Below, in pieces: positions 2,498 to 46,418 of a DNA stretch of 64,000 nucleotides (positions are counted from its first letter, which is position 1; each line of letters starts with the position of its first letter). The DNA comes from Pseudobdellovibrionaceae bacterium. Lineage in GTDB: Bacteria > Bdellovibrionota > Bdellovibrionia > Bdellovibrionales > Bdellovibrionaceae. Both the position numbers and the translations under genes were made by a program. The notes below the pieces were generated by a model. That model made no database searches, had not been told where the DNA came from, and was given only the letters and a program-made list of their open reading frames with translations. The stretch spans positions 1 through 64,000 of the forward strand of contig JBDHWW010000008.1 of the NCBI GenBank assembly GCA_039810425.1. The letters run 5' to 3'.

Positions 2498-3330
2498 TCG
2501 CAGACAGCGGACTTGCAAGCCGCCGCCATGCCGACCGCATGATCGAAGAGGGTCAAGTGACCGTCAACGGGAAGCGCGTGTACGAGTTGGGTATTAAAGT
2601 GGACCCAGCCCATGACAACATCATGGTGAACGGCAAACCTCTGAAAAAACCAATGCAAAACGTTTACATTCTCTTCAATAAGCCGAAGGGCGTTTTGACG
2701 ACGATGGAAGATCCTCTCGGCCGTCCAACGATCGCGGAATACCTTGAAAGTGTTCCGGGCCGCGTTTTCCCGGTGGGTCGTCTGGATTGGGACTCTGAGG
2801 GTCTGTTGCTCCTTACGAACGATGGCGATTTCGCCAACAAAGTGACTCACCCAAAAGCGGAAGTCACTAAGACCTATATGGTGAAAGTTGACGGCCAGCC
2901 ATCGAAGGAAGATTTGCAGAAACTTCTTCGCGGCGTCACGATCGTCGGCGGCAAAGTGGCGGCAAAGCACATCGAGAAAATCAAACGCCAAGAAGGTTCT
3001 GATAAGTATGACTGGTACAAAATGGTCATCACAGAAGGTAAGAACCGTCAGATCCGTCAGATGTTTGAGAAAATCGGCTTCGACGTTATGAAGCTTCAAC
3101 GTGTGGCGATCGGTCGTTTGCGCATCGGCAATGTTGAGCGCGGCGAATTGGTGTTCTTAAATGATGCCGCCGTTGAACGCGTATTCTTGCCGGATTCTCC
3201 GGATGAGTTGAAAGTGAAAAAGACCTACAAAGGTCGCGCGGTCGCACAGCGTGCGGCTGCGGAAAAGAAAAAAACCGGCGGCAAAAAGCCTTTTGCCAAA
3301 AAAGGAAAAACACCTTTCAATAAGAGATAG
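2452..3330 (+). CDS. rluB: rRNA pseudouridine synthase, RsuA/RluB family
   Basis: S4 domain (LNKLIADSGLASRR), catalytic GRLD motif, EGKNRQIR motif. Confidence 0.9.
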   Translation: MSENNPENKLRLNKLIADSGLASRRHADRMIEEGQVTVNGKRVYELGIKVDPAHDNIMVNGKPLKKPMQNVYILFNKPKGVLTTMEDPLGRPTIAEYLESVPGRVFPVGRLDWDSEGLLLLTNDGDFANKVTHPKAEVTKTYMVKVDGQPSKEDLQKLLRGVTIVGGKVAAKHIEKIKRQEGSDKYDWYKMVITEGKNRQIRQMFEKIGFDVMKLQRVAIGRLRIGNVERGELVFLNDAAVERVFLPDSPDELKVKKTYKGRAVAQRAAAEKKKTGGKKPFAKKGKTPFNKR

Positions 3331-4205
3331 TGAATCGCACGTCCCTGACTGGAATAATTGAAATCACCCTAGGAAGCCTCGGTTTTGGCTTCCTGGGCAT
3401 TTTTGGTAAATGGGCCTTCGCCAGCGGCCTGGCTGTTGGCGAACTCCTCACCTATCGTTTCATTGTCGCCGCCCTTGTTCTGTGGATCGCCCTATTTATT
3501 TTTCAACGCGATAAAATCCGTCTCTCTCGTTCACAAATTTTAATCTCAGCGGCACTTGGGATTTTTGGTTATGCCGTGTTTGCAACGCTGTATTTTACCG
3601 CAGTTGCGGGGATGAGTGTCGGGCTTGCAGCTTTATTACTTTATACCTATCCATTTTGGGTCAGTTTGCTCGGACATTTTTTCTTGCGCGACAAGATGAC
3701 AAAGAATCAATGGCTTTTGCTCTTCGGCGCTTTTGCCGGTGTGACGTGCCTATTATGGGGTCAGTTCCATGTGAACAATATGGGCGCGCTCTTCGCGGGA
3801 CTGGGCTCTGCGGCGACTTATGCGGCTTATATTTTATTTTCCGCACGCTATCAGCGAAATGTAAAACCGATCTCTTCGAGTCTTTACGTTATCACCTTCG
3901 CCGCCCTGGCATTGGCGGCCTTTCACCAGCCAGATTTACGAGTATGGGCCGTGCTTACACCTTCCCAATGGCGATTTGTTTTGGGAATTGCCACCATCTC
4001 GACAATCTTTCCGATGACTCTGATTTTAGCGGGCTTGCAGAAATTAAAAAGCTCACAAGCCGCGCTGATCACCATGCTGGAACCCGTCACCGCAGCCATA
4101 GCTGCCGGATATTTACTCAATGAACGGATGAGCGCGCTACAAATCGCCGGCGCCACTCTCGTGCTGGCCTGCTTGGTCCTCAGTATTTTGCGCTCTGGAA
4201 AATAA
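3330..4205 (+). CDS. DMT/EamA family transporter
   Basis: About 10 hydrophobic helices, LLLYTYP and LEPVTA motifs. Confidence 0.85.
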   Translation: MNRTSLTGIIEITLGSLGFGFLGIFGKWAFASGLAVGELLTYRFIVAALVLWIALFIFQRDKIRLSRSQILISAALGIFGYAVFATLYFTAVAGMSVGLAALLLYTYPFWVSLLGHFFLRDKMTKNQWLLLFGAFAGVTCLLWGQFHVNNMGALFAGLGSAATYAAYILFSARYQRNVKPISSSLYVITFAALALAAFHQPDLRVWAVLTPSQWRFVLGIATISTIFPMTLILAGLQKLKSSQAALITMLEPVTAAIAAGYLLNERMSALQIAGATLVLACLVLSILRSGK

Positions 4206-39193: not shown

Positions 39194-40027
39194 TTAACCC
39201 AAGAGTTTCAAAGCAAGCTGCGGTGTCGAGTTAGCTTGACCAAGAACACTTGTATTCGCGTTCAAGAGAATCGTATTTCTAGTCATCTCTGAAGTTGCTG
39301 CCGCTACATCTGTGTCACGGATACGAGAGTTTGCTGCCGAGATATTTTCGTACATGACACCCAAGTTGTCAGAAGTGGATTGCAAACGATTTTGGATCGC
39401 ACCTAGACTTGCGCGGTAGCCATTCACTTTGAATTGTGCATCATCCAGTTTTGAAAGAGCGGACTGCGCACCTTCTTTGGAAGTGAAATCGAGGCCTTCT
39501 ACGCCCAACTCATCAATTGTCGCGTTGGTCATCGCAGAATCATACGTGATACGATCTTCTGATTCATTATTGTTGATACCGACTTGGAAATCGAATGCGT
39601 TGCCAGAACCATTCAGAAGCTGTGTATTTCCGAAACGAGTTGTTTGAGAGATTCGTTGCATTTCCGCTTTAAGTTGTTGCACCTCTTTGTCAGTGAAACC
39701 GCGTTCACGGTCACCTACGGTGTCGGAAGCGGCCTGGATGCCCAACTCACGAATACGAGTCAAAATGTTGCTCACTTCGTTCAACCCGCCTTCTGCAGTT
39801 TGCACCATAGAGATACCATCGTTAGCATTACGTTGAGCCTGAACCATACTACGGCCTTGAGATTTTAAATTTTCACTGATTGCCAAGCCTGCAGCGTCGT
39901 CTGCTGACTTAGTGATACGAGAACCTGAAGCCAATTGAGCCATGCTCTTTTGGATTTCGCGCTGGCCATTAGCCATTGTTCGCTGCGCGTTAATTGCTGC
40001 TACGTTCGTCGAAATTCTGATTCCCAT
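39194..40027 (-). CDS. fliC: Flagellin A (277 aa)
   Basis: LASGSRITKSADDAAGLAIS, QNRL, SRIRDTDVA. Confidence 0.97.
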   Translation of the reverse strand: MGIRISTNVAAINAQRTMANGQREIQKSMAQLASGSRITKSADDAAGLAISENLKSQGRSMVQAQRNANDGISMVQTAEGGLNEVSNILTRIRELGIQAASDTVGDRERGFTDKEVQQLKAEMQRISQTTRFGNTQLLNGSGNAFDFQVGINNNESEDRITYDSAMTNATIDELGVEGLDFTSKEGAQSALSKLDDAQFKVNGYRASLGAIQNRLQSTSDNLGVMYENISAANSRIRDTDVAAATSEMTRNTILLNANTSVLGQANSTPQLALKLLG

Positions 40028-40198
40028 GTGGGACCTCCATTTTTTTGGCGGTCTTATACCTACTTAGACCGCCTGTTTGTACACGTTGGTGACTTCACTT
40101 CTTCCTCTAGAGCCTGCTAGCGATGAACTCTCGGCAGTCACTCCTTAAGTCCCTCTCAGCCCGTCCAGGTCGAGGTGTCGTCGTTGCTGTTGACATAC

Positions 40199-40225
40199 CT
40201 TTCGGCGAGGTCGTGGAAGTCTTTA
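40199..40225 (-). promoter_or_regulatory. Putative sigma28 promoter of flagellin A (leader ~165 nt)
   Basis: TAAA-N15-GCCGAAAG. Confidence 0.75.
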
Positions 40226-41509: not shown

Positions 41510-42523
41510 CTAATGCCAAACCAAAGGATCAGACCAAAGCGCATCAACGAGACTCACTTCCGCCGGCTGGTAGGATCTCATGCCCAATGCTTTCATAAAG
41601 CCGAACACCAACGCAAGGTTTGTCACCTCGGTCGCCGCATAGGGGTCATTAATCTGAACATCCGTCATATTCGCACGAATCTCGAGAGCCGCCTGAATCG
41701 TTTCTTGTGTCATCGCACTGGCGGCAATAATTTGCCGAGGAAGCGACTTTGCCAAAACACCGCCGATACCAACAACCACTGTTTCGGGATTTGCGAATTT
41801 TCTTTTGATGTTAGCCGGCACGGTTGCTGTTGCTTCTACTTCCGCAAGAGCTACTGAAGGCTTCACGTTTTTTTTCTTTAATGGGTTGGGAGAAGTGACT
41901 TTGTCCGGATTCATTTTCTGAACTTTAGCAATGACCTGATTTTTAAAACTCACCGACGCGAGATTGCCGTAATATACCGTCGGCTTGAGTGCTTCATCCA
42001 CGCTTGTCATTTGCATGCTGCCGCCGCCGATATCCCAAACCACCAGATCCCCAATAGGGACTTTGACTTTTTCGCGAGCCACTTGAAAGCCTAAGAAGGC
42101 CTCTTCGCTTTGCGAGATCACCTTTAAGGGAATGGACAGTTTTTCACGAATCACTTTTACGAAGCTGTCGGCATTTTTAGCCTGACGAAAAGCCGCCGTC
42201 GCGATGCCTGTGAACCTCTTCGTCCCTTTGGCCTGAGCTTCACTCTTTAATTTTTCGAGCGCGACTAGCCCCTCGGTTTGAACAGACTCTGAAAACTCCC
42301 CAGCCTCGTTCTTTTCAAGCGCGTCTCGGTAATCGACCTTCACTTGATCCTCGAGCACCGTTTGAGTCACATCCTGTGTGCAAGTATTAAACTCAACGAC
42401 CTTCATTTTAGTGGCACCGGATCCCACATCAAAGGCCGCGCGGATCTCGGGTCCACACTTCGGCGTCGTCTGGCAAGAAACCAAAGAAAGCGATATAAGA
42501 AGAAGAAATAAAACATGGTACAT
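41510..42523 (-). CDS. Ppx/GppA (ASKHA) phosphatase-family protein with lipoprotein signal
   Basis: DVGSGATK, ATAAFRQA, VISQSEEA, DIGGGS; lipobox LVSC. Confidence 0.85.
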   Translation of the reverse strand: MYHVLFLLLISLSLVSCQTTPKCGPEIRAAFDVGSGATKMKVVEFNTCTQDVTQTVLEDQVKVDYRDALEKNEAGEFSESVQTEGLVALEKLKSEAQAKGTKRFTGIATAAFRQAKNADSFVKVIREKLSIPLKVISQSEEAFLGFQVAREKVKVPIGDLVVWDIGGGSMQMTSVDEALKPTVYYGNLASVSFKNQVIAKVQKMNPDKVTSPNPLKKKNVKPSVALAEVEATATVPANIKRKFANPETVVVGIGGVLAKSLPRQIIAASAMTQETIQAALEIRANMTDVQINDPYAATEVTNLALVFGFMKALGMRSYQPAEVSLVDALWSDPLVWH

Positions 42524-42620
42524 AGATCGTCCTTGAAAGATTTCCTCCTATTACAAGCCGTATAGAACGAAACTTCAAGAAACCATCGCGCTGCATCCGA
42601 AAAAGGTACGGCGTACCCTC

Positions 42621-42656
42621 AAAAAAAAAACCCCGAAAGGCTTGCGCCTCCCGGGG
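42621..42656 (-). terminator. Intrinsic terminator ~230 nt downstream of flagellin B
   Basis: CCCCGGGAGGC-GCAA-GCCUUUCGGGG followed by U10. Confidence 0.85.
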
Positions 42657-42888
42657 TGGGCTTAAGAGTAGTTTTTGTGGGCGACTACTCGTAATTATTT
42701 GAAACTCCGTTCCCGCTGGAGTTCCTTTAAAATTTATCTCAAGAGTTCGCGCAATCAATTAGGATTACACCAACTCCTCAAATATTGTCCGCAATGACAA
42801 AGCAGTTTTGGAAGGCTCGGCAGATCTGTGAGCACTCACTCTCACAGATCCACCATTTTGTATCACTGAAGCTTTCAGTGAAATTTTA

Positions 42889-43713
42889 TTATAAGAGCTT
42901 CAATGCGACCGCTGGTGTTTGGTTGGCTTGAGCCAAAACCCCTACCGCCGCTTGTTGCAAGATATTGGCAGACGTCATCTCAGAAGTTTCTTTCGCGACG
43001 TCTGTGTCACGGATACGAGAGTTCGCAGCCGTCAAGTTTTCGTACTGGATGTCCAAGTTGCTTACCGTGGAATCCAAGCGACTTTGTACCGCACCGAAGT
43101 TCGCTCTCAGTGAGCTGACCTTCACGAGGGCATCATCGACGGTTTTCAAAGCAGCGCGCGCATCGGATTTCGTACCTACCTCAAGACCGTCGATACCAAG
43201 CTCTGAGCCTGTAGCATCGGCGCCAAGGTCGTACTTAATAATATTCTCATCACCGGCGAAGGCACCCACTTGGAACTCCATCTTACCGCCAGAGCCATCC
43301 AAGAGCCGTTTATCACCAAACACCGTAGTTTTCGCGATACGGTCCGCCTCTTGAGTCAGTTGGGTTGCTTCAAGATTCAAGAATCCGCGTTCGCGCTCAC
43401 CGATATGGTCAGAAGCCGCTTGGACTCCCAACTCACGCAAACGGATTAAAATATTACTGATCTCATTCAATCCCCCCTCAGACACTTGAATTGCTGAAGT
43501 CGCATTGAACGCATTGTTTCTGGCCTGAGCAATACCGCGCACCTGGCCGCGGATATTTTCAGAGATCGCGAGGCCGGCCGCATCATCAGATGCATGCACG
43601 ATACGCGAACCAGAAGCTAAGGCCGCCGTCGCATGTTCCGCACGTTTCTGCTGAACCGACAACACCCTTTGTGCCGATATAGACGCCATGTTGGTCTGAA
43701 TTCTTAAGCCCAT
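42889..43713 (-). CDS. fliC: Flagellin B (274 aa)
   Basis: LASGSRIVHASDDAAGLAIS, SRIRDTDVA. Confidence 0.97.
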   Translation of the reverse strand: MGLRIQTNMASISAQRVLSVQQKRAEHATAALASGSRIVHASDDAAGLAISENIRGQVRGIAQARNNAFNATSAIQVSEGGLNEISNILIRLRELGVQAASDHIGERERGFLNLEATQLTQEADRIAKTTVFGDKRLLDGSGGKMEFQVGAFAGDENIIKYDLGADATGSELGIDGLEVGTKSDARAALKTVDDALVKVSSLRANFGAVQSRLDSTVSNLDIQYENLTAANSRIRDTDVAKETSEMTSANILQQAAVGVLAQANQTPAVALKLL

Positions 43714-43940
43714 TGTATCCTCCTTAGGATGAAGCCAACGCGGTTCCGACCCACCGAAGCTCGCGCTGGAGTTCTAAAAAACTAACTACGTTAAAATGTT
43801 TTTTTAGATTGGAGCGGGCCCGCACTCTCTGACGGGGCGACTGTCCCTTCAGAGAGGCGAGCTATCCGCCTAAGGAGGATTCTGTCGAGTGACTGCTAGA
43901 CAAAGGTCCCGAGGTTTTAGCTCCAACGTGTACGCAATAC

Positions 43941-43967
43941 TTCTCGGCCTTGGTCCAGGAAACTTAA
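43941..43967 (-). promoter_or_regulatory. Putative sigma28 promoter of flagellin B (leader ~220 nt)
   Basis: TTAAGTTT-N11-GCCGAGAA. Confidence 0.75.
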
Positions 43968-44109
43968 GGCCCTTGGTCTAGCTTTTCTTTGGATGCGACG
44001 CGTCTTGTATGTGAAAATATTGAGAATGTGGATTAAAAAAATATTTTAAAAACACCTACTTAGGTCTAGGTCGAACTAGACCTTGCAGCAATTATGTTAC
44101 GGAGTTTGG

Positions 44110-44141
44110 GCGGCGAAGAACGCCATTAGCGTCTTCGCCGC
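44110..44141 (-). terminator. Strong hairpin downstream of flagellin C
   Basis: GCGGCGAAGACGCU-AAU-GGCGUUCUUCGCCGC; no clear U tract. Confidence 0.55.
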
Positions 44142-44173
44142 AAATTCAGTCGCCCCCAAATATATTCATAAAT

Positions 44174-44998
44174 CTAAGCGATTAATCGCAGCAGAACTTC
44201 ATTCGACATATTGGACTGGGCCAATACCGATGCCTGATATTGCTGCAAGATCTGACCACGGCGAACCTCGCTCACCGCTTGCGCGACATCAGTGTCGGCC
44301 ATTCTCGAGTGCGCGGCTTCGATGTTCTCGATGCCCACCGCGAGATTGTTGGCGGCGCTGTCCATACGTGATTGGACGGCTCCGTATTTGGCGCGTGCCT
44401 CGGCCACCTTCATCATCGCTTCATCGATGTCCTTCAGGTTACTGCGGGCATCGCTCTTGGATTCGATATCGCCGCCAGCCACGCCCAGTGAAGAGCCCGT
44501 GGTGTCGGTGTCCGAAGTGTACTTAATGATGCTGTCGCTGCCACCCGAAGTTCCGACTTGGAATTCGTAGTCTTTCGATCTTCCATTCAGCAATGAGGTG
44601 GAACCATAAGTGGTCGTCTTTGCAATACGATCCAACTCTTGCGACAGTTGAGTGTATTCAAAGTTAAGGTATTCGCGCTCTTTATCAGAGTACGTATCAC
44701 TCGCTGCCTGAACCGCTAGCTCGCGCATACGGATCAGAATATTATTCTGCTCGTTGAGAGCCCCCTCAGCGACTTGAATAAAACTCGTGGCATTGTCGGC
44801 ATTGTTCAATGCCGCCCTTTGGCCTCGCATTTGACCTTTGAGTTGCTCTGCGATTGCAGCGCCAGCGGCGTCGGAGCCGGGCGTATTGAAGCGGGTTCCG
44901 GAAGCCAAATCCTTCATAGCCTTTTCAGTAGACCGTTGGGTCGAGCCCAGGTATCTCTGCGCCATGAGAGATGCCGAAACAGGAGAAATACGTAACAT
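44174..44998 (-). CDS. fliC: Flagellin C (274 aa, more divergent)
   Basis: GGAGGT RBS before MLRIS; LASG..DAAG, RMRELAVQAASD, SRMADTDVA. Confidence 0.95.
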   Translation of the reverse strand: MLRISPVSASLMAQRYLGSTQRSTEKAMKDLASGTRFNTPGSDAAGAAIAEQLKGQMRGQRAALNNADNATSFIQVAEGALNEQNNILIRMRELAVQAASDTYSDKEREYLNFEYTQLSQELDRIAKTTTYGSTSLLNGRSKDYEFQVGTSGGSDSIIKYTSDTDTTGSSLGVAGGDIESKSDARSNLKDIDEAMMKVAEARAKYGAVQSRMDSAANNLAVGIENIEAAHSRMADTDVAQAVSEVRRGQILQQYQASVLAQSNMSNEVLLRLIA

Positions 44999-45102
44999 TG
45001 AAGCCACCTCCCCTTCCCCGAGTGCCTCGCCCCGAGACATTATGGAAGGAAAAAAGCGCCCACATTTAAACTCTTAAGACCTTTGTCTAGCAGTCACAAT
45101 TC

Positions 45103-45129
45103 TTTTCGGCGCATTGCGTTAAAACTTTA
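45103..45129 (-). promoter_or_regulatory. Putative sigma28 promoter of flagellin C (leader ~100 nt)
   Basis: TAAAGTTT-N11-GCCGAAAA, near-perfect consensus. Confidence 0.85.
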
Positions 45130-45164
45130 GGATCATTGCGAATTATTAGACCTTACGACTCATT

Positions 45165-46418
45165 TTAAGGCATCGGAATCGGACTCATCAGATCTTCTGA
45201 AGAAACACTGGATGAACTATCGAACGGCAAGAAGCTTTGCGCTGTATAGGCGAAGGGGTGCCGGCCGCCATACTGCTGGATTATATCCATTACTTTGTTT
45301 CGAATCTGGTCACGAGCGTTGCTCCAATCTGCCGGGCTCTCGGTGTTCATGAAAATGCCGAAATAGACATCGCCCTGAGTTGTGGAAAGGACCCCCGTTA
45401 ACGTGACGGCAGGGTCCACTGTGCCCGTCTTCGCCACCATACTGTTCGGGATAGGATCAAATCGCGGACTCAGAGTTCCACCATCCGCGCCAGAGACTGC
45501 CATCACATCCTTTAAGCTCATTCTGTATTTCGTCTGAAGCTCAGATTGCATTTGGTACTGAACACGAAGAATTGCTTCACAAGTGGCTCGGTTGTATGTT
45601 TTGGTGCCACCGTCTACGCCAGAAATAGAGTTCCCTGAGCCATTCACAAAGACGAGATCAAGATCGTTCAGATTTAAACTACTTTGTATAAAGCTGCGGA
45701 AATGAGGTGTCCCGCCGAGGATTTCAAAAAGTTTGTCGGCAACGTGATTGTTAGAAACCGTGTTCATTTCTTTGAGGTAGCGGAAAAGCGGCGCTGACTT
45801 CACGACAAAGGACTTTGTGGCAGATGAGGGTTGGAATGCCGCTGCCGGGACCAGCTCCACGGTTTGAGCGGTCAAACTGAGTGTCTTGGGCAGTGTCATA
45901 CCGAGATTCGCAGCCTCTTGGCGTGTTCGAGGGTATTCGGTCGCTAATGCCCTGATATGCCGAGCAATTGAGCCCGCAATTTCTTGGGGGGTTGGCTCCT
46001 CCGGCTCCACGCTGTCTGTAACAACAAACCAGCGGAAACCGAGATTCTCGTCAAAACTTAATTTCCGGATTTGACGAACTCCATTTCGATTCAACTCCGA
46101 AAATAAAAAATGGGTGAGCTGGCGACCCCAGAACGGATCTCGTGCTCCTTGAATGTGCACGTCGAAAACGTCGTGGCCCAAAGGCGTTATGAAAATACGA
46201 GTACTAAAACGAAATTGAGGGCCTAATTGGTAAAGTGCCCAATAGGAAGTAACAACTTTGGAAACTGAGGCGATCTCAAAAAGTTCGTTGCTGTGCACGC
46301 CTTGAATTCTTGAGTGGCCGCCTTCATCGAGCATATAGCAAACGGAGTTGAGACTCGTTTTCGCCTCTCCCAGGACTGTGAGGCTCAATAGAATGCTGAA
46401 AAGAACTATTCCCTTCAC
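45165..46418 (-). CDS. Secreted D-Ala-D-Ala carboxypeptidase/endopeptidase (PBP4/DacB, S13)
   Basis: Signal peptide; SVSK, SNN, NGSG, GTL, KTGT motifs. Confidence 0.88.
   Translation of the reverse strand: MKGIVLFSILLSLTVLGEAKTSLNSVCYMLDEGGHSRIQGVHSNELFEIASVSKVVTSYWALYQLGPQFRFSTRIFITPLGHDVFDVHIQGARDPFWGRQLTHFLFSELNRNGVRQIRKLSFDENLGFRWFVVTDSVEPEEPTPQEIAGSIARHIRALATEYPRTRQEAANLGMTLPKTLSLTAQTVELVPAAAFQPSSATKSFVVKSAPLFRYLKEMNTVSNNHVADKLFEILGGTPHFRSFIQSSLNLNDLDLVFVNGSGNSISGVDGGTKTYNRATCEAILRVQYQMQSELQTKYRMSLKDVMAVSGADGGTLSPRFDPIPNSMVAKTGTVDPAVTLTGVLSTTQGDVYFGIFMNTESPADWSNARDQIRNKVMDIIQQYGGRHPFAYTAQSFLPFDSSSSVSSEDLMSPIPMP

What the first reader, a model, noticed from the sequence alone, without database searches (positions are those of the whole stretch)
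43889..45097. First 20 nt of the flagellin C transcript are perfectly antisense to the flagellin B leader
Seen: 45078-45097 is the exact reverse complement of 43889-43908. The C promoter -10 box ends at 45103, so the predicted +1 (~45096-45097) coincides with the start of the block GUGACUGCUAGACAAAGGUC. The target in B lies 8 nt upstream of B's anti-SD. A rough uniform-base expectation for a 20-mer match between a ~100-nt and a ~220-nt leader is about 1e-8. Inference: trans pairing remodels the B leader. Alternative: DNA inversion sites, but no recombinase is in the window and inversion would cut both genes off from their promoters.
Basis: partly seen in the sequence, partly recalled or inferred. 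Interest (0 to 1): 0.85.

Follow-up and report, generated by a model that had tools for sequence, protein, structure and literature searches.

The report
Flagellin mRNA 5' end pairs paralog leader
The start of one flagellin messenger RNA is complementary to a hairpin in the leader of the neighbouring flagellin messenger, and this match has been kept by co-ordinated sequence change across many predatory Bdellovibrio-like bacteria, which points to direct RNA-to-RNA cross-talk between flagellin genes.

Summary
43889-43908 is the exact reverse complement of 45078-45097, these are the only two copies in the genome, and none is expected by chance. Both arms lie on the sense strand of two flagellin genes. 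One arm begins 5 nt after the -10 box of flagellin C's sigma-28-type promoter. The other is the loop plus 5' stem strand of a hairpin in flagellin B's leader, 8 nt upstream of B's anti-SD.

The complementarity is present in 47 Bdellovibrionales genomes from 26 genus-level groups. The arm sequences differ between lineages but stay complementary within each genome (16-29 Watson-Crick pairs). Mismatches favour G·U over A·C in the sense RNAs (47 to 16). The arms lie 1.0-8.6 kb apart, and in one genome opposite-strand genes lie between them. No assembly shows an inverted orientation.

I read this as RNA-RNA pairing, probably in trans. DNA inversion is unlikely. The consequence is not shown: folding predicts no release of either SD. 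I found nothing like it in print for flagellins. It is a new variant of antisense or regulatory-mRNA control. No RNA data were available.

The parts
45103..45129 (-). Sigma-28 (FliA)-type promoter of flagellin C: -35 TAAAGTTT (45129-45122), conserved spacer TAACGCAATGC, -10 GCCGAAAA (45110-45103)
   Evidence: Read from the sequence. The same promoter type, with the same spacer motif, sits upstream of the arm in relatives. The FliA consensus TTAAG-N16-CCGATA was reported for Bdellovibrio attack-phase promoters (PMC3627812, passages read).
45078..45097 (-). C arm: the predicted first ~20 nt of the flagellin C mRNA (GUGACUGCUAGACAAAGGUC); predicted +1 lies within 45095-45097
   Evidence: In 46 of 47 genomes the complementarity starts 0-7 nt after the -10 box. 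The 47th row was mis-anchored by my regex.
44999..45077 (-). Rest of the C leader. It includes the conserved UGUGGGCGC motif, C's own anti-SD (about 45057-45044) and its SD GGGGAAGGGGAGG (45019-45007)
   Evidence: The SD's unpaired probability is 0.043. It stays at 0.058 to 0.072 when the arm is blocked.
44174..44998 (-). Flagellin C coding sequence. The likely true start is ATG 44998; the ORF list gives 45040
   Evidence: Pfam Flagellin_N and Flagellin_C. Flagellin_N begins at residue 21 of the 288-aa ORF, and an SD lies 8 nt before 44998.
43941..43967 (-). Sigma-28-type promoter of flagellin B: -35 TTAAGTTT (43967-43960), spacer CCTGGACCAAG, -10 GCCGAGAA (43948-43941)
   Evidence: It is conserved across families. 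The strict pattern occurs in 57 of 384 genomes of the order.
43889..43908 (-). B arm in the flagellin B leader (GACCUUUGUCUAGCAGUCAC), about +28 to +47 of the B mRNA
43881..43904 (-). Hairpin H1 of the B leader: 5' strand UUUGUC (43904-43899), loop UAGCAGUCACUC (43898-43887), 3' strand GACAGA (43886-43881)
   Evidence: A hairpin is predicted in 21 of 21 leaders that carry the loop motif. The stem sequence differs between lineages but still pairs. Cognate stems reach 5 bp or more in 19 of 21, against 41% of 364 non-cognate combinations.
43869..43880 (-). Anti-SD of the B leader (AUCCUCCUUAGG)
   Evidence: It pairs with SD region 43730-43717 in the MFE and in the ensemble. A cognate anti-SD/SD complement is also found in relatives.
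43714..43730 (-). B Shine-Dalgarno region (AUCCUAAGGAGGAU plus spacer) before ATG 43713
42889..43713 (-). Flagellin B coding sequence. An intrinsic terminator lies downstream at 42630-42657
   Evidence: Pfam and the terminator scan.

Best explanation
The two arms are the two halves of an RNA-RNA duplex formed between two flagellin messengers made from separate sigma-28 promoters. The extreme 5' end of the flagellin C mRNA is single-stranded or only weakly structured. It is complementary to the loop of hairpin H1 in the flagellin B leader and to the 5' strand of that hairpin's stem. I infer that pairing starts at the loop and then displaces the 3' strand, giving a duplex of about 20-28 bp next to B's anti-SD. 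This has the same topology as IS10 RNA-IN (5' end) meeting RNA-OUT (loop), but here the two RNAs come from separate genes and both are mRNAs of paralogs. What is shown is the complementarity, its conservation with compensating change, its sense-strand bias, and its placement at the predicted +1 and in a hairpin loop. The outcome is inferred only. Both SDs are predicted to stay sequestered by their own anti-SDs. The most likely effect is therefore on RNA fate, either through cleavage of the long duplex by a double-strand RNase or through protection of C's 5' end. That would link the levels of the two flagellins. A direct effect on B translation is less likely.
For: 1. The 20/20 match is unique in the genome and none is expected by chance.

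2. In 47 genomes from 26 genus-level groups, the cognate C 5' end and B hairpin share 16-29 (median 22) Watson-Crick positions, although the sequences themselves differ. Examples are the cores GACGGCUG, GGCUGCUG, GACUACUG, GACUGUUGAUGAG, CUAGUCAGUCC, GACUAUAAACGACC and CUAACUACUGAAAUGAAUCC. Among the first 22 genomes, cognate duplexes average -37.1 kcal/mol and non-cognate ones -25.7.

3. Transition mismatches are G·U-type 47 times and A·C-type 16 times in the sense RNAs. The sense duplex is more stable than the antisense one in 37 of 47 genomes, equal in 2 and worse in 8. By genus group the count is 22 better, 3 worse and 1 equal. G·U exceeds A·C in 14 groups, A·C exceeds G·U in 1, and 11 tie.

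4. The C arm always follows a C-type sigma-28 promoter directly.

5. The B arm is presented as a hairpin loop plus stem strand, and the stem covaries.

6. The same bulges and mismatches between the arms persist across species. The same 1-nt bulge occurs in G002, G003, G004, G006 and M32, so the arms are not being homogenised.

7. Trans action is favoured by spacing. The arms are 1.0-8.6 kb apart, and in G321 they are on different contigs. In G012, three opposite-strand ORFs lie between them, two with Pfam matches (TgpA-like, MoxR AAA). In G005 a cupin gene lies between them.

8. The predicted duplex for this window is -50.1 kcal/mol.
Against: - There is no RNA evidence. No raw RNA reads were available, so the TSS, co-expression and the duplex are all unobserved.
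- Folding predicts no change in SD accessibility of B or C when the arm is blocked, so no regulatory output can be named from sequence.
- In about 12 of 47 genomes the local alignment extends into the 0-3 nt just after the -10 box, which probably lies upstream of the TSS. This may be chance extension.
- The G·U excess could partly reflect C-to-T mutation bias on the non-template strand of highly transcribed genes (recalled knowledge, not tested here).
- One genome, G010 (96% complete), has the hairpin but no detectable partner.
- No partner was found in the fetched upstream sequence for 16 of 41 additional genomes. A genome-wide search of 5 of those 16 gave a C-type partner in 3.
- There is no canonical terminator between C and B in this window, so read-through and cis pairing cannot be excluded here.
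Confidence: 0.7

Rival explanations
1. The same RNA pairing occurs, but in cis. A read-through C-B transcript folds so that its own 5' end pairs with the inter-cistronic B leader 1.2 kb downstream. This would form a long-range structure that controls processing or B expression within the bicistronic RNA.
For: No canonical intrinsic terminator lies between the C stop and the B promoter in this window. Two hairpins are present there, but neither has a proper U tract. The two genes are adjacent and on the same strand in most genomes. A cis RNA-RNA interaction that forms an RNase III substrate within a bicistronic transcript is described for S. aureus yabJ-spoVG (bioRxiv 10.64898/2026.09.18.752551, abstract seen in the listing).
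Against: B has its own conserved sigma-28 promoter between the two arms. In G012 the arms are 4.9 kb apart with three opposite-strand ORFs between them. In G302 the arms are 8.6 kb apart, in G329 5.8 kb, and in G321 they lie on different contigs.
Confidence: 0.1
2. The arms are sites for site-specific DNA inversion. Under this reading, 43889-45097 is an invertible segment that phase-varies flagellin expression.
For: A perfect 20-bp inverted repeat flanks a flagellin gene, as in classical flagellar phase variation. The genome encodes 9 resolvase-family matches.
Against: - None of the 9 resolvase matches is on the window's contig.
- All 47 genomes, plus G302 and G329, have both arms in the same promoter-to-gene orientation.
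- The source contig and the other contigs laid on the region show no joint, although contigs do not show minor forms.
- Inversion would detach both genes from their promoters and set the two promoters face to face (read from the sequence).
- The arms carry stable 1-3-nt bulges and mismatches.
- The sequences differ widely between genera.
- The sense-strand G·U bias and the coincidence with the predicted +1 have no DNA-level explanation.
Confidence: 0.03
3. Both arms are operators for one DNA-binding regulator that sits just downstream of the two sigma-28 promoters. The arm sequences would then change together because the protein's specificity drifts.
For: Both sites lie in the initially transcribed region of co-regulated promoters. 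The orientation of a site does not matter for many DNA-binding proteins.
Against: - Within each genome, identity between the two sites is contiguous over 16-29 bp, while the sequences are almost unrelated between some genera. This is not the pattern of a degenerate protein site.
- The B site's distance from its promoter varies from 41 to 52 nt after the -10 box.
- The B site coincides with a covarying RNA hairpin.
- Mismatches show an RNA-sense G·U bias.
Confidence: 0.05
4. The repeat is a relic of an ancient inverted duplication of a flagellin leader. It would be kept alike by occasional gene conversion and have no present function.
For: The reverse complement of the first ~60 nt of the B leader resembles the A-type and C-type leaders, with the same motifs in the same order. 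This fits an origin by inverted duplication.
Against: Arms of about 20 bp are short for homologous conversion (recalled). Stable bulges and mismatches shared by several species show the arms are not being homogenised. Complementarity has persisted across 26 genus-level groups while neighbouring leader sequence diverged.
Confidence: 0.05

Closest known systems
IS10/Tn10 RNA-IN / RNA-OUT antisense pairing
   Same: The 5' end of an mRNA is complementary to an antisense stem-loop RNA and forms a long duplex. RNA-OUT's first 35 nt are perfectly complementary to RNA-IN (PMC5006887, passages read). That pairing begins between the 5' end of RNA-IN and the loop of RNA-OUT is recalled (Kittle et al. 1989) and was not read here.
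   Different: IS10's RNAs are cis-encoded from overlapping opposite strands, and the duplex covers the ribosome-binding site. Here the partners are separate genes 1-8.6 kb apart, both are mRNAs of paralogous structural proteins, and the duplex does not cover either SD.
Regulatory mRNAs and mRNA-mRNA base pairing (for example Listeria hly 5'UTR with prsA2, S. mutans irvA with gbpC; recalled, not read here)
   Same: One protein-coding transcript uses an untranslated segment to pair in trans with another mRNA.
   Different: Those cases were found by experiment in single species. This one links flagellin paralogs, uses the very first nucleotides of the transcript, is supported only by comparative sequence, and is conserved across an order.
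Sigma-28-dependent UTR-derived small RNAs of E. coli flagellar genes (PMC10578931; title and abstract start seen in the listing; the names MotR, FliX, UhpU and FlgO are recalled)
   Same: Transcripts from class-3 flagellar promoters base-pair with flagellar mRNAs to tune flagellum synthesis.
   Different: Those are small RNAs derived from UTRs and act on many targets. Here the pairing element is the 5' end of a full flagellin mRNA with one dedicated paralog target. Whether a short 5' fragment is released is unknown.
Hin/Gin-type invertible flagellar phase-variation switch
   Same: Inverted repeats flank a segment at a flagellin locus.
   Different: There is no recombinase on the contig and no orientation polymorphism. 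The arms carry bulges, and inversion would silence both genes.
FliW-CsrA-flagellin partner switch (B. subtilis hag, C. jejuni flaA; recalled)
   Same: It gives post-transcriptional control through the flagellin 5' leader. csrA and fliW are present next to a flgL-like gene in this genome.
   Different: That control is by protein binding at GGA motifs and the SD, not by RNA-RNA pairing. It may act on the same leaders in parallel.

Membership tests
Trans-encoded base-pairing RNA regulation (regulatory mRNA) | Complementarity between two separately transcribed RNAs beyond chance | tested here: met
   A 20/20 match that is unique in the genome, with 0 matches in 100 shuffles. The predicted duplex is -50.1 kcal/mol.
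Trans-encoded base-pairing RNA regulation (regulatory mRNA) | Pairing conserved through compensating changes in relatives | tested here: met
   Found in 47 genomes from 26 genus-level groups, with 16-29 WC pairs and different sequences. Cognate duplexes average -37.1 kcal/mol and non-cognate -25.7 in 22 genomes.
Trans-encoded base-pairing RNA regulation (regulatory mRNA) | Both RNAs are made, with the ends assumed, in the same cell at the same time | not testable with these tools
   Both have sigma-28-type promoters. No RNA holder was listed and only contigs were available.
Trans-encoded base-pairing RNA regulation (regulatory mRNA) | Pairing changes translation or stability of a partner | tested here: inconclusive
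   Constraint folding predicts no change in SD accessibility for B or C. Effects on decay or processing cannot be computed.
Site-specific invertible DNA switch (Hin/Gin or tyrosine-recombinase type) | Recombinase gene in or next to the invertible segment | tested here: not met
   The ORFs from 37.4 to 51 kb are flagellins, an S13 peptidase, Ppx/GppA, DUF4442, ABC transporter parts and a 3D-domain protein. There are 9 resolvase-family hits in the genome and none on contig C8. Tyrosine recombinases were not searched.
Site-specific invertible DNA switch (Hin/Gin or tyrosine-recombinase type) | Both orientations occur among cells or assemblies | tested here: not met
   The same orientation is seen in 47 of 47 genomes, plus G302 and G329. 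No joints appeared in the contigs of 4 runs. Contigs hide minor forms, so this is weak for within-population variation.
Site-specific invertible DNA switch (Hin/Gin or tyrosine-recombinase type) | Inversion reconnects a promoter to a different gene or turns one gene on or off | tested here: not met
   From the sequence, the B promoter lies inside the segment and the C promoter outside it. Inversion would detach both genes and set the promoters face to face.
Described RNA families (Rfam 15) | Match to a curated covariance model | tested here: not met
   Over 42500-45400, only three matches appeared, all far below the gathering score (E 0.096 to 2.9) and none at either arm.
CsrA/FliW-controlled flagellin leader | csrA and fliW present, and GGA motifs at the SD | tested here: met
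   CsrA lies at C10:3795-3953 and FliW at C10:3126-3485. B's SD is AAGGAGGA. Binding itself is not testable here. This would be a parallel control and does not explain the repeat.

The most novel reading that the evidence does not exclude
The flagellin messengers form a base-pairing relay. The 5' end of C pairs with a hairpin in B's leader. The predicted 5' end of B (GUACACGUUGG, 43933-43923) pairs with an internal site in A's leader (CCAACGUGUAC, 40089-40079), and that second pairing also covaries. Through mutual cleavage or protection, each mRNA would set the fate of the next. This would give the cell an RNA-level way to fix the order or ratio in which flagellin paralogs enter the filament, which is known to be built from paralogs in a fixed order in Bdellovibrio.
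Probability: 0.25. Interest if true: 0.9.

Novelty: new variant of a known kind. Interest (0 to 1): 0.78.

Why it matters
Many bacteria carry several flagellin genes. In Bdellovibrio bacteriovorus the paralogs are laid down in a fixed order along the filament, and deleting one raises the mRNA of others (PMC2791853, abstract and passages). How this co-ordination is achieved is not known.

A conserved, covarying duplex between the very 5' end of one flagellin mRNA and a hairpin in the leader of its paralog would be a direct RNA-level link between paralogs. It would need no dedicated small RNA. It can be tested at once in cultured relatives, for example the isolate behind L024, by 5'-end mapping, compensatory mutagenesis and RNA interactome methods.

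It would also add a clear, widely conserved natural case to the short list of mRNA-mRNA regulatory pairs. Its loop-toehold plus strand-displacement layout resembles designs used in synthetic RNA switches.

Tried and rejected
- **Reads.** No RNA holder was listed for the region. All four runs laid were contigs. The likely source contig spans the region in reference orientation with no joints, and the other runs cover only fragments. This gives nothing on expression or on minor inverted forms.
- **Rfam.** Nothing relevant was found.
- **Small ORF.** A 30-codon ORF starts at the GTG of the left arm on the + strand, behind AAGGAGGA. I rejected it because the 1-nt indel in the B arm of G002, G003, G004 and G006 breaks the frame.
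- **Gapless searches for a C partner.** Searches in G010, G013, G021 and G012 found none at up to 3 mismatches. G013 and G012 later proved to have bulged partners. The 13-14-mer hits in G010 and G012 lie in unrelated sequence and are chance. G010 remains without a partner.
- **Failed scripts.** One search used a faulty regex and was redone. let the local alignments run into promoters and wrong loci, giving G·U 66 and A·C 58. I discarded it and replaced it with the anchored version. Rows G125-127 and G324 are still mis-anchored there.
- **Genome-wide 11-mer scan.** I scanned for complementarity between predicted sigma-28 5' ends and other sigma-28 leaders. It gave 18 pairs against roughly 8 expected by my own estimate. 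It recovered C->B and B->A, but shows that an 11-mer alone is near chance.
- **Literature.** Searches for flagellin mRNA-mRNA or antisense pairing in Bdellovibrio found nothing on point. Searches failed on term format and were re-sent.
- **SD release.** The hypothesis that C binding releases B's SD found no support in folding.
Full report
**Observation.** The + strand at 43889-43908 reads GTGACTGCTAGACAAAGGTC, and 45078-45097 is its exact reverse complement. At up to three mismatches these are the only two copies in the window, and none of 100 dinucleotide-preserving shuffles had any. They are also the only two in the 3.54-Mb genome. Weaker complementarity extends the arms to 31 nt at 84%.

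**Gene context.** All relevant genes are on the minus strand. Flagellin A is 39194-40027, flagellin B is 42889-43713 and flagellin C is 44174-45040 in the ORF list. Each has Pfam Flagellin_N and Flagellin_C. The real start of C is probably ATG 44998. It is preceded by GGGGAGG, and the Flagellin_N match begins at residue 21 of the longer ORF. That makes the C leader about 99 nt.

**Promoters and leader elements.** C is preceded by TAAAGTTT-N11-GCCGAAAA (45129-45103), and B by TTAAGTTT-N11-GCCGAGAA (43967-43941). These fit the FliA consensus TTAAG-N16-CCGATA reported for 92 of 140 attack-phase promoters of Bdellovibrio bacteriovorus (PMC3627812, passages read). The C arm starts 5 nt after the -10 box, so the predicted +1 (45095-45097) falls on its first bases. 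The usual sigma-28 spacing of about 6-8 nt is recalled. The B arm lies about +28 to +47 of a leader of about 222 nt. It sits 8 nt upstream of AUCCUCCUUAGG (43880-43869), which is complementary to B's SD region (43730-43717) and pairs with it in the predicted fold.

**Organism.** Record titles of close relatives place the organism in Bdellovibrionales, in the GTDB family Pseudobdellovibrionaceae. The closest named isolate is Bdellovibrio sp. HCB337.

**Conservation in the genus.** Both arms are present in all six other genomes of the genus, in the same positions relative to the two promoters. All six loci are collinear with the window. The arms are not always identical. G002, G003, G004 and G006 share a 1-nt bulge and a G/A difference. 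G001 changed both arms together, with CUAGAUGAAAGUC opposite GACCUUCAUUCUAG.

**Conservation across the order.** I searched further genera and families of the order, plus metagenome and genome contigs. This gave 47 genomes in 26 genus-level groups in which a C-type promoter is followed by a stretch complementary to the B-type leader. Many have quite different sequences. Examples:

| Genome(s) | Arm core |
|---|---|
| G036, G012 | GACGGCUG |
| G007 | GGCUGCUG |
| G042 | GACUACUG |
| G019 | GACUGUUGAUGAGUUCC |
| G009 | GUUGCUAGUCAGUCCAAGGUC |
| G038 | CUGACUAUAAACGACC |
| G031 | CUAACUACUGAAAUGAAUCC |

Each has the matching complement in its own B leader. Watson-Crick positions per pair range from 16 to 29, with a median of 22. 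In the first 22 genomes, cognate duplexes average -37.1 kcal/mol and non-cognate combinations -25.7. The most diverged genera pair well only with their own partner.

**RNA level or DNA level.** Four lines of evidence point to RNA.

- *Strand bias of mismatches.* Where the arms differ by a transition, the sense RNAs would form G·U in 47 cases and A·C in 16, and there are 64 transversions. The sense duplex is more stable than the duplex of the opposite strands in 37 of 47 genomes, equal in 2 and worse in 8. By genus group the count is 22 better, 3 worse and 1 equal. G·U exceeds A·C in 14 groups against 1, with 11 ties. For perfect pairs the two duplexes have identical energies, so this difference measures wobble pairs only.
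- *Caveats on that test.* The genomes are related. Four rows are mis-anchored by my regex. A C-to-T bias on the non-template strand could add to the G·U excess (recalled, not tested).
- *A covarying hairpin in B.* The B arm is the 5' strand plus loop of a hairpin. A hairpin is predicted in 21 of 21 leaders that carry the loop motif. The loop is conserved (AGCAGUCAC). The stems differ yet still pair: UUUGUC/GACAGA here, UUCAUUC/GAAUGAA in G001, UUUGUUC/GAACAAA in G002, CUUGUUC/GAACAAG in G023. Cognate flanks form 5 bp or more in 19 of 21, against 41% of 364 non-cognate combinations.
- *Position at the transcript start.* Complementarity begins 0-7 nt after the -10 box in 46 of 47 genomes. A DNA-level element has no reason to respect this landmark.
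- *No homogenisation.* The same bulges and mismatches between arms persist across species, so the arms are not being kept alike by recombination.

**Trans or cis.** In this window there is no canonical terminator between C and B, so read-through cannot be excluded here. Elsewhere the arms are far apart:

| Genome | Separation of the arms |
|---|---|
| G005 | 2.8 kb, with a cupin gene between |
| G012 | 4.9 kb, with three opposite-strand ORFs between, two with Pfam matches (TgpA-like, MoxR AAA) |
| G329 | 5.8 kb |
| G302 | 8.6 kb |
| G321 | on another contig |

In G302, G329 and G321 the distant arm is directly preceded by a C-type promoter. This favours pairing between separate molecules.

**DNA inversion.**
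- The window's contig has no resolvase-family gene. The genome has 9 elsewhere. Tyrosine recombinases were not searched.
- All 47 genomes, plus G302 and G329, show one orientation.
- The contigs laid on the region show no joints, although contigs cannot show minority forms.
- The B promoter lies inside the segment and the C promoter outside it. Inversion would detach both genes and set the promoters face to face.

I rate inversion at about 3%. A shared operator for a DNA-binding protein fits poorly with contiguous 16-29-bp identity that is lineage-specific, and with the RNA-sense wobble bias.

**What the pairing does is not shown.**
- With the arm blocked, or with the whole 5' part blocked, B's SD stays sequestered. 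Mean unpaired probability is 0.012 free, and 0.011 and 0.010 blocked.
- C's SD is likewise held by its own anti-SD: 0.043 free, and 0.058 and 0.072 blocked.
- Anti-SD/SD complements recur in B-type leaders of relatives, with lineage-specific sequence.
- So the pairing opens hairpin H1, but it is not predicted to free the SD.

A duplex of 20-28 bp that begins at the first nucleotide of an mRNA suggests control of RNA fate. Either a double-strand-specific RNase cleaves both partners, or C's 5' end is protected from 5'-end-dependent decay. This is inference. The genome also has csrA and fliW beside a flgL-like gene, so protein-based leader control probably acts in parallel.

**Distribution and gaps.**
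- The strict B-leader pattern occurs in 57 of 384 genomes of the order, in 27 of 121 genera. It is present in only 1 of 44 genomes of genus g10.
- The one g10 genome I inspected (G015) has a B-type leader without the hairpin and no C-type promoter.
- G010 has the hairpin but no detectable partner.
- In 16 of 41 additional genomes no partner lay in the 0.6-3.5 kb of upstream sequence I fetched. I searched 5 of these genome-wide. Three had a partner, one had an uninspected candidate and one had none.

**A second complementarity.** The predicted 5' end of B (GUACACGUUGG, 43933-43923, starting 7 nt after the -10 box) is complementary to CCAACGUGUAC in the A leader (40089-40079). A's GAGUGACUGC (40143-40134) is complementary to B's loop. 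These blocks change together in G003/G004 (UGUAACGUGUUGG with CCAACACGUUACA), in G006 (AUACACGUUGG with CCAACGUGUAU) and in G015 (a G·U). An 11-mer alone is near chance in a genome-wide scan: 18 pairs against about 8 expected by my estimate. The whole-leader duplex energies also show no sense bias. This stays a lead. If real, it makes a C-to-B-to-A relay.

**Comparison with known systems.** The topology is closest to IS10 RNA-IN/RNA-OUT (PMC5006887, passages read; the loop-initiation detail is recalled), but here the partners are encoded apart and both are mRNAs. It belongs with the few regulatory mRNA-mRNA pairs (recalled). It also sits beside the sigma-28-dependent flagellar small RNAs of E. 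coli (PMC10578931, abstract start seen in the listing). My searches found no report of flagellin paralog mRNAs pairing with each other. That is a related idea with a different layout, and I did not test it.

**Verdict.** This is a new variant of a known kind.

Noticed in passing
window 40079-40089 and 40134-40143 (minus strand, flagellin A leader) versus 43923-43933 and 43887-43896 (B leader): The A leader carries CCAACGUGUAC, complementary to the predicted first 11 nt of the B mRNA. It also carries GAGUGACUGC, complementary to the B hairpin loop. Both blocks change together with B in G003/G004, G006 and G015. An 11-mer alone is near chance in a genome-wide scan.
   Followed up: partly
window 45111-45121 and 43949-43959 (spacers of the C and B promoters); 40207-40219 (A promoter): Each flagellin type has its own conserved sequence between the -35 and -10 boxes. 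C has TAACGCAATGC, B has CCTGGACCAAG and A has CTTCCACGACCTC. These are kept across families. Promoter spacers are not normally conserved like this, and I have no explanation.
   Followed up: no
window 45054-45064 (minus strand, C leader): The motif UGUGGGCGC (UGUGGGCAC in other families) lies 12-25 nt after the arm in nearly all C-type leaders. In this window it can pair partly with the first 10 nt of the B leader.
   Followed up: no
window 44996-45040: The ORF list starts flagellin C at ATG 45040. The SD and the Pfam alignment point to ATG 44998, which gives 274 aa, the same length as B.
   Followed up: yes
window 45007-45057 and 43717-43880: Both the C and B leaders hold an anti-SD that sequesters their own SD in predicted folds. 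In B-type leaders of relatives the anti-SD changes together with the SD.
   Followed up: partly
window 44040-44173 (minus strand, between the C stop and the B promoter): Two strong hairpins are present, GCGGCGAAGACGC...GGCGUUCUUCGCCGC and AGGUCUAG...CUAGACCU. Neither has an adjacent U tract, and the scan calls no terminator on this strand.
   Followed up: partly
G000 contig C10:3126-5136: A flgL-like gene, csrA and fliW lie in a row. This is the arrangement of the FliW-CsrA flagellin partner switch.
   Followed up: no
L023 (G005) 2869-3405: The closest relative has a 1.7-kb insertion between flagellin C and the B promoter. It carries a cupin-domain gene on the same strand, and the arms stay intact at 19 of 20.
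   Followed up: partly
window 43889-43981 (+ strand): A 30-codon ORF starts at the GTG of the left arm, 9 nt after AAGGAGGA (the complement of B's anti-SD). Its frame is broken in relatives, so it is probably not a gene.
   Followed up: yes
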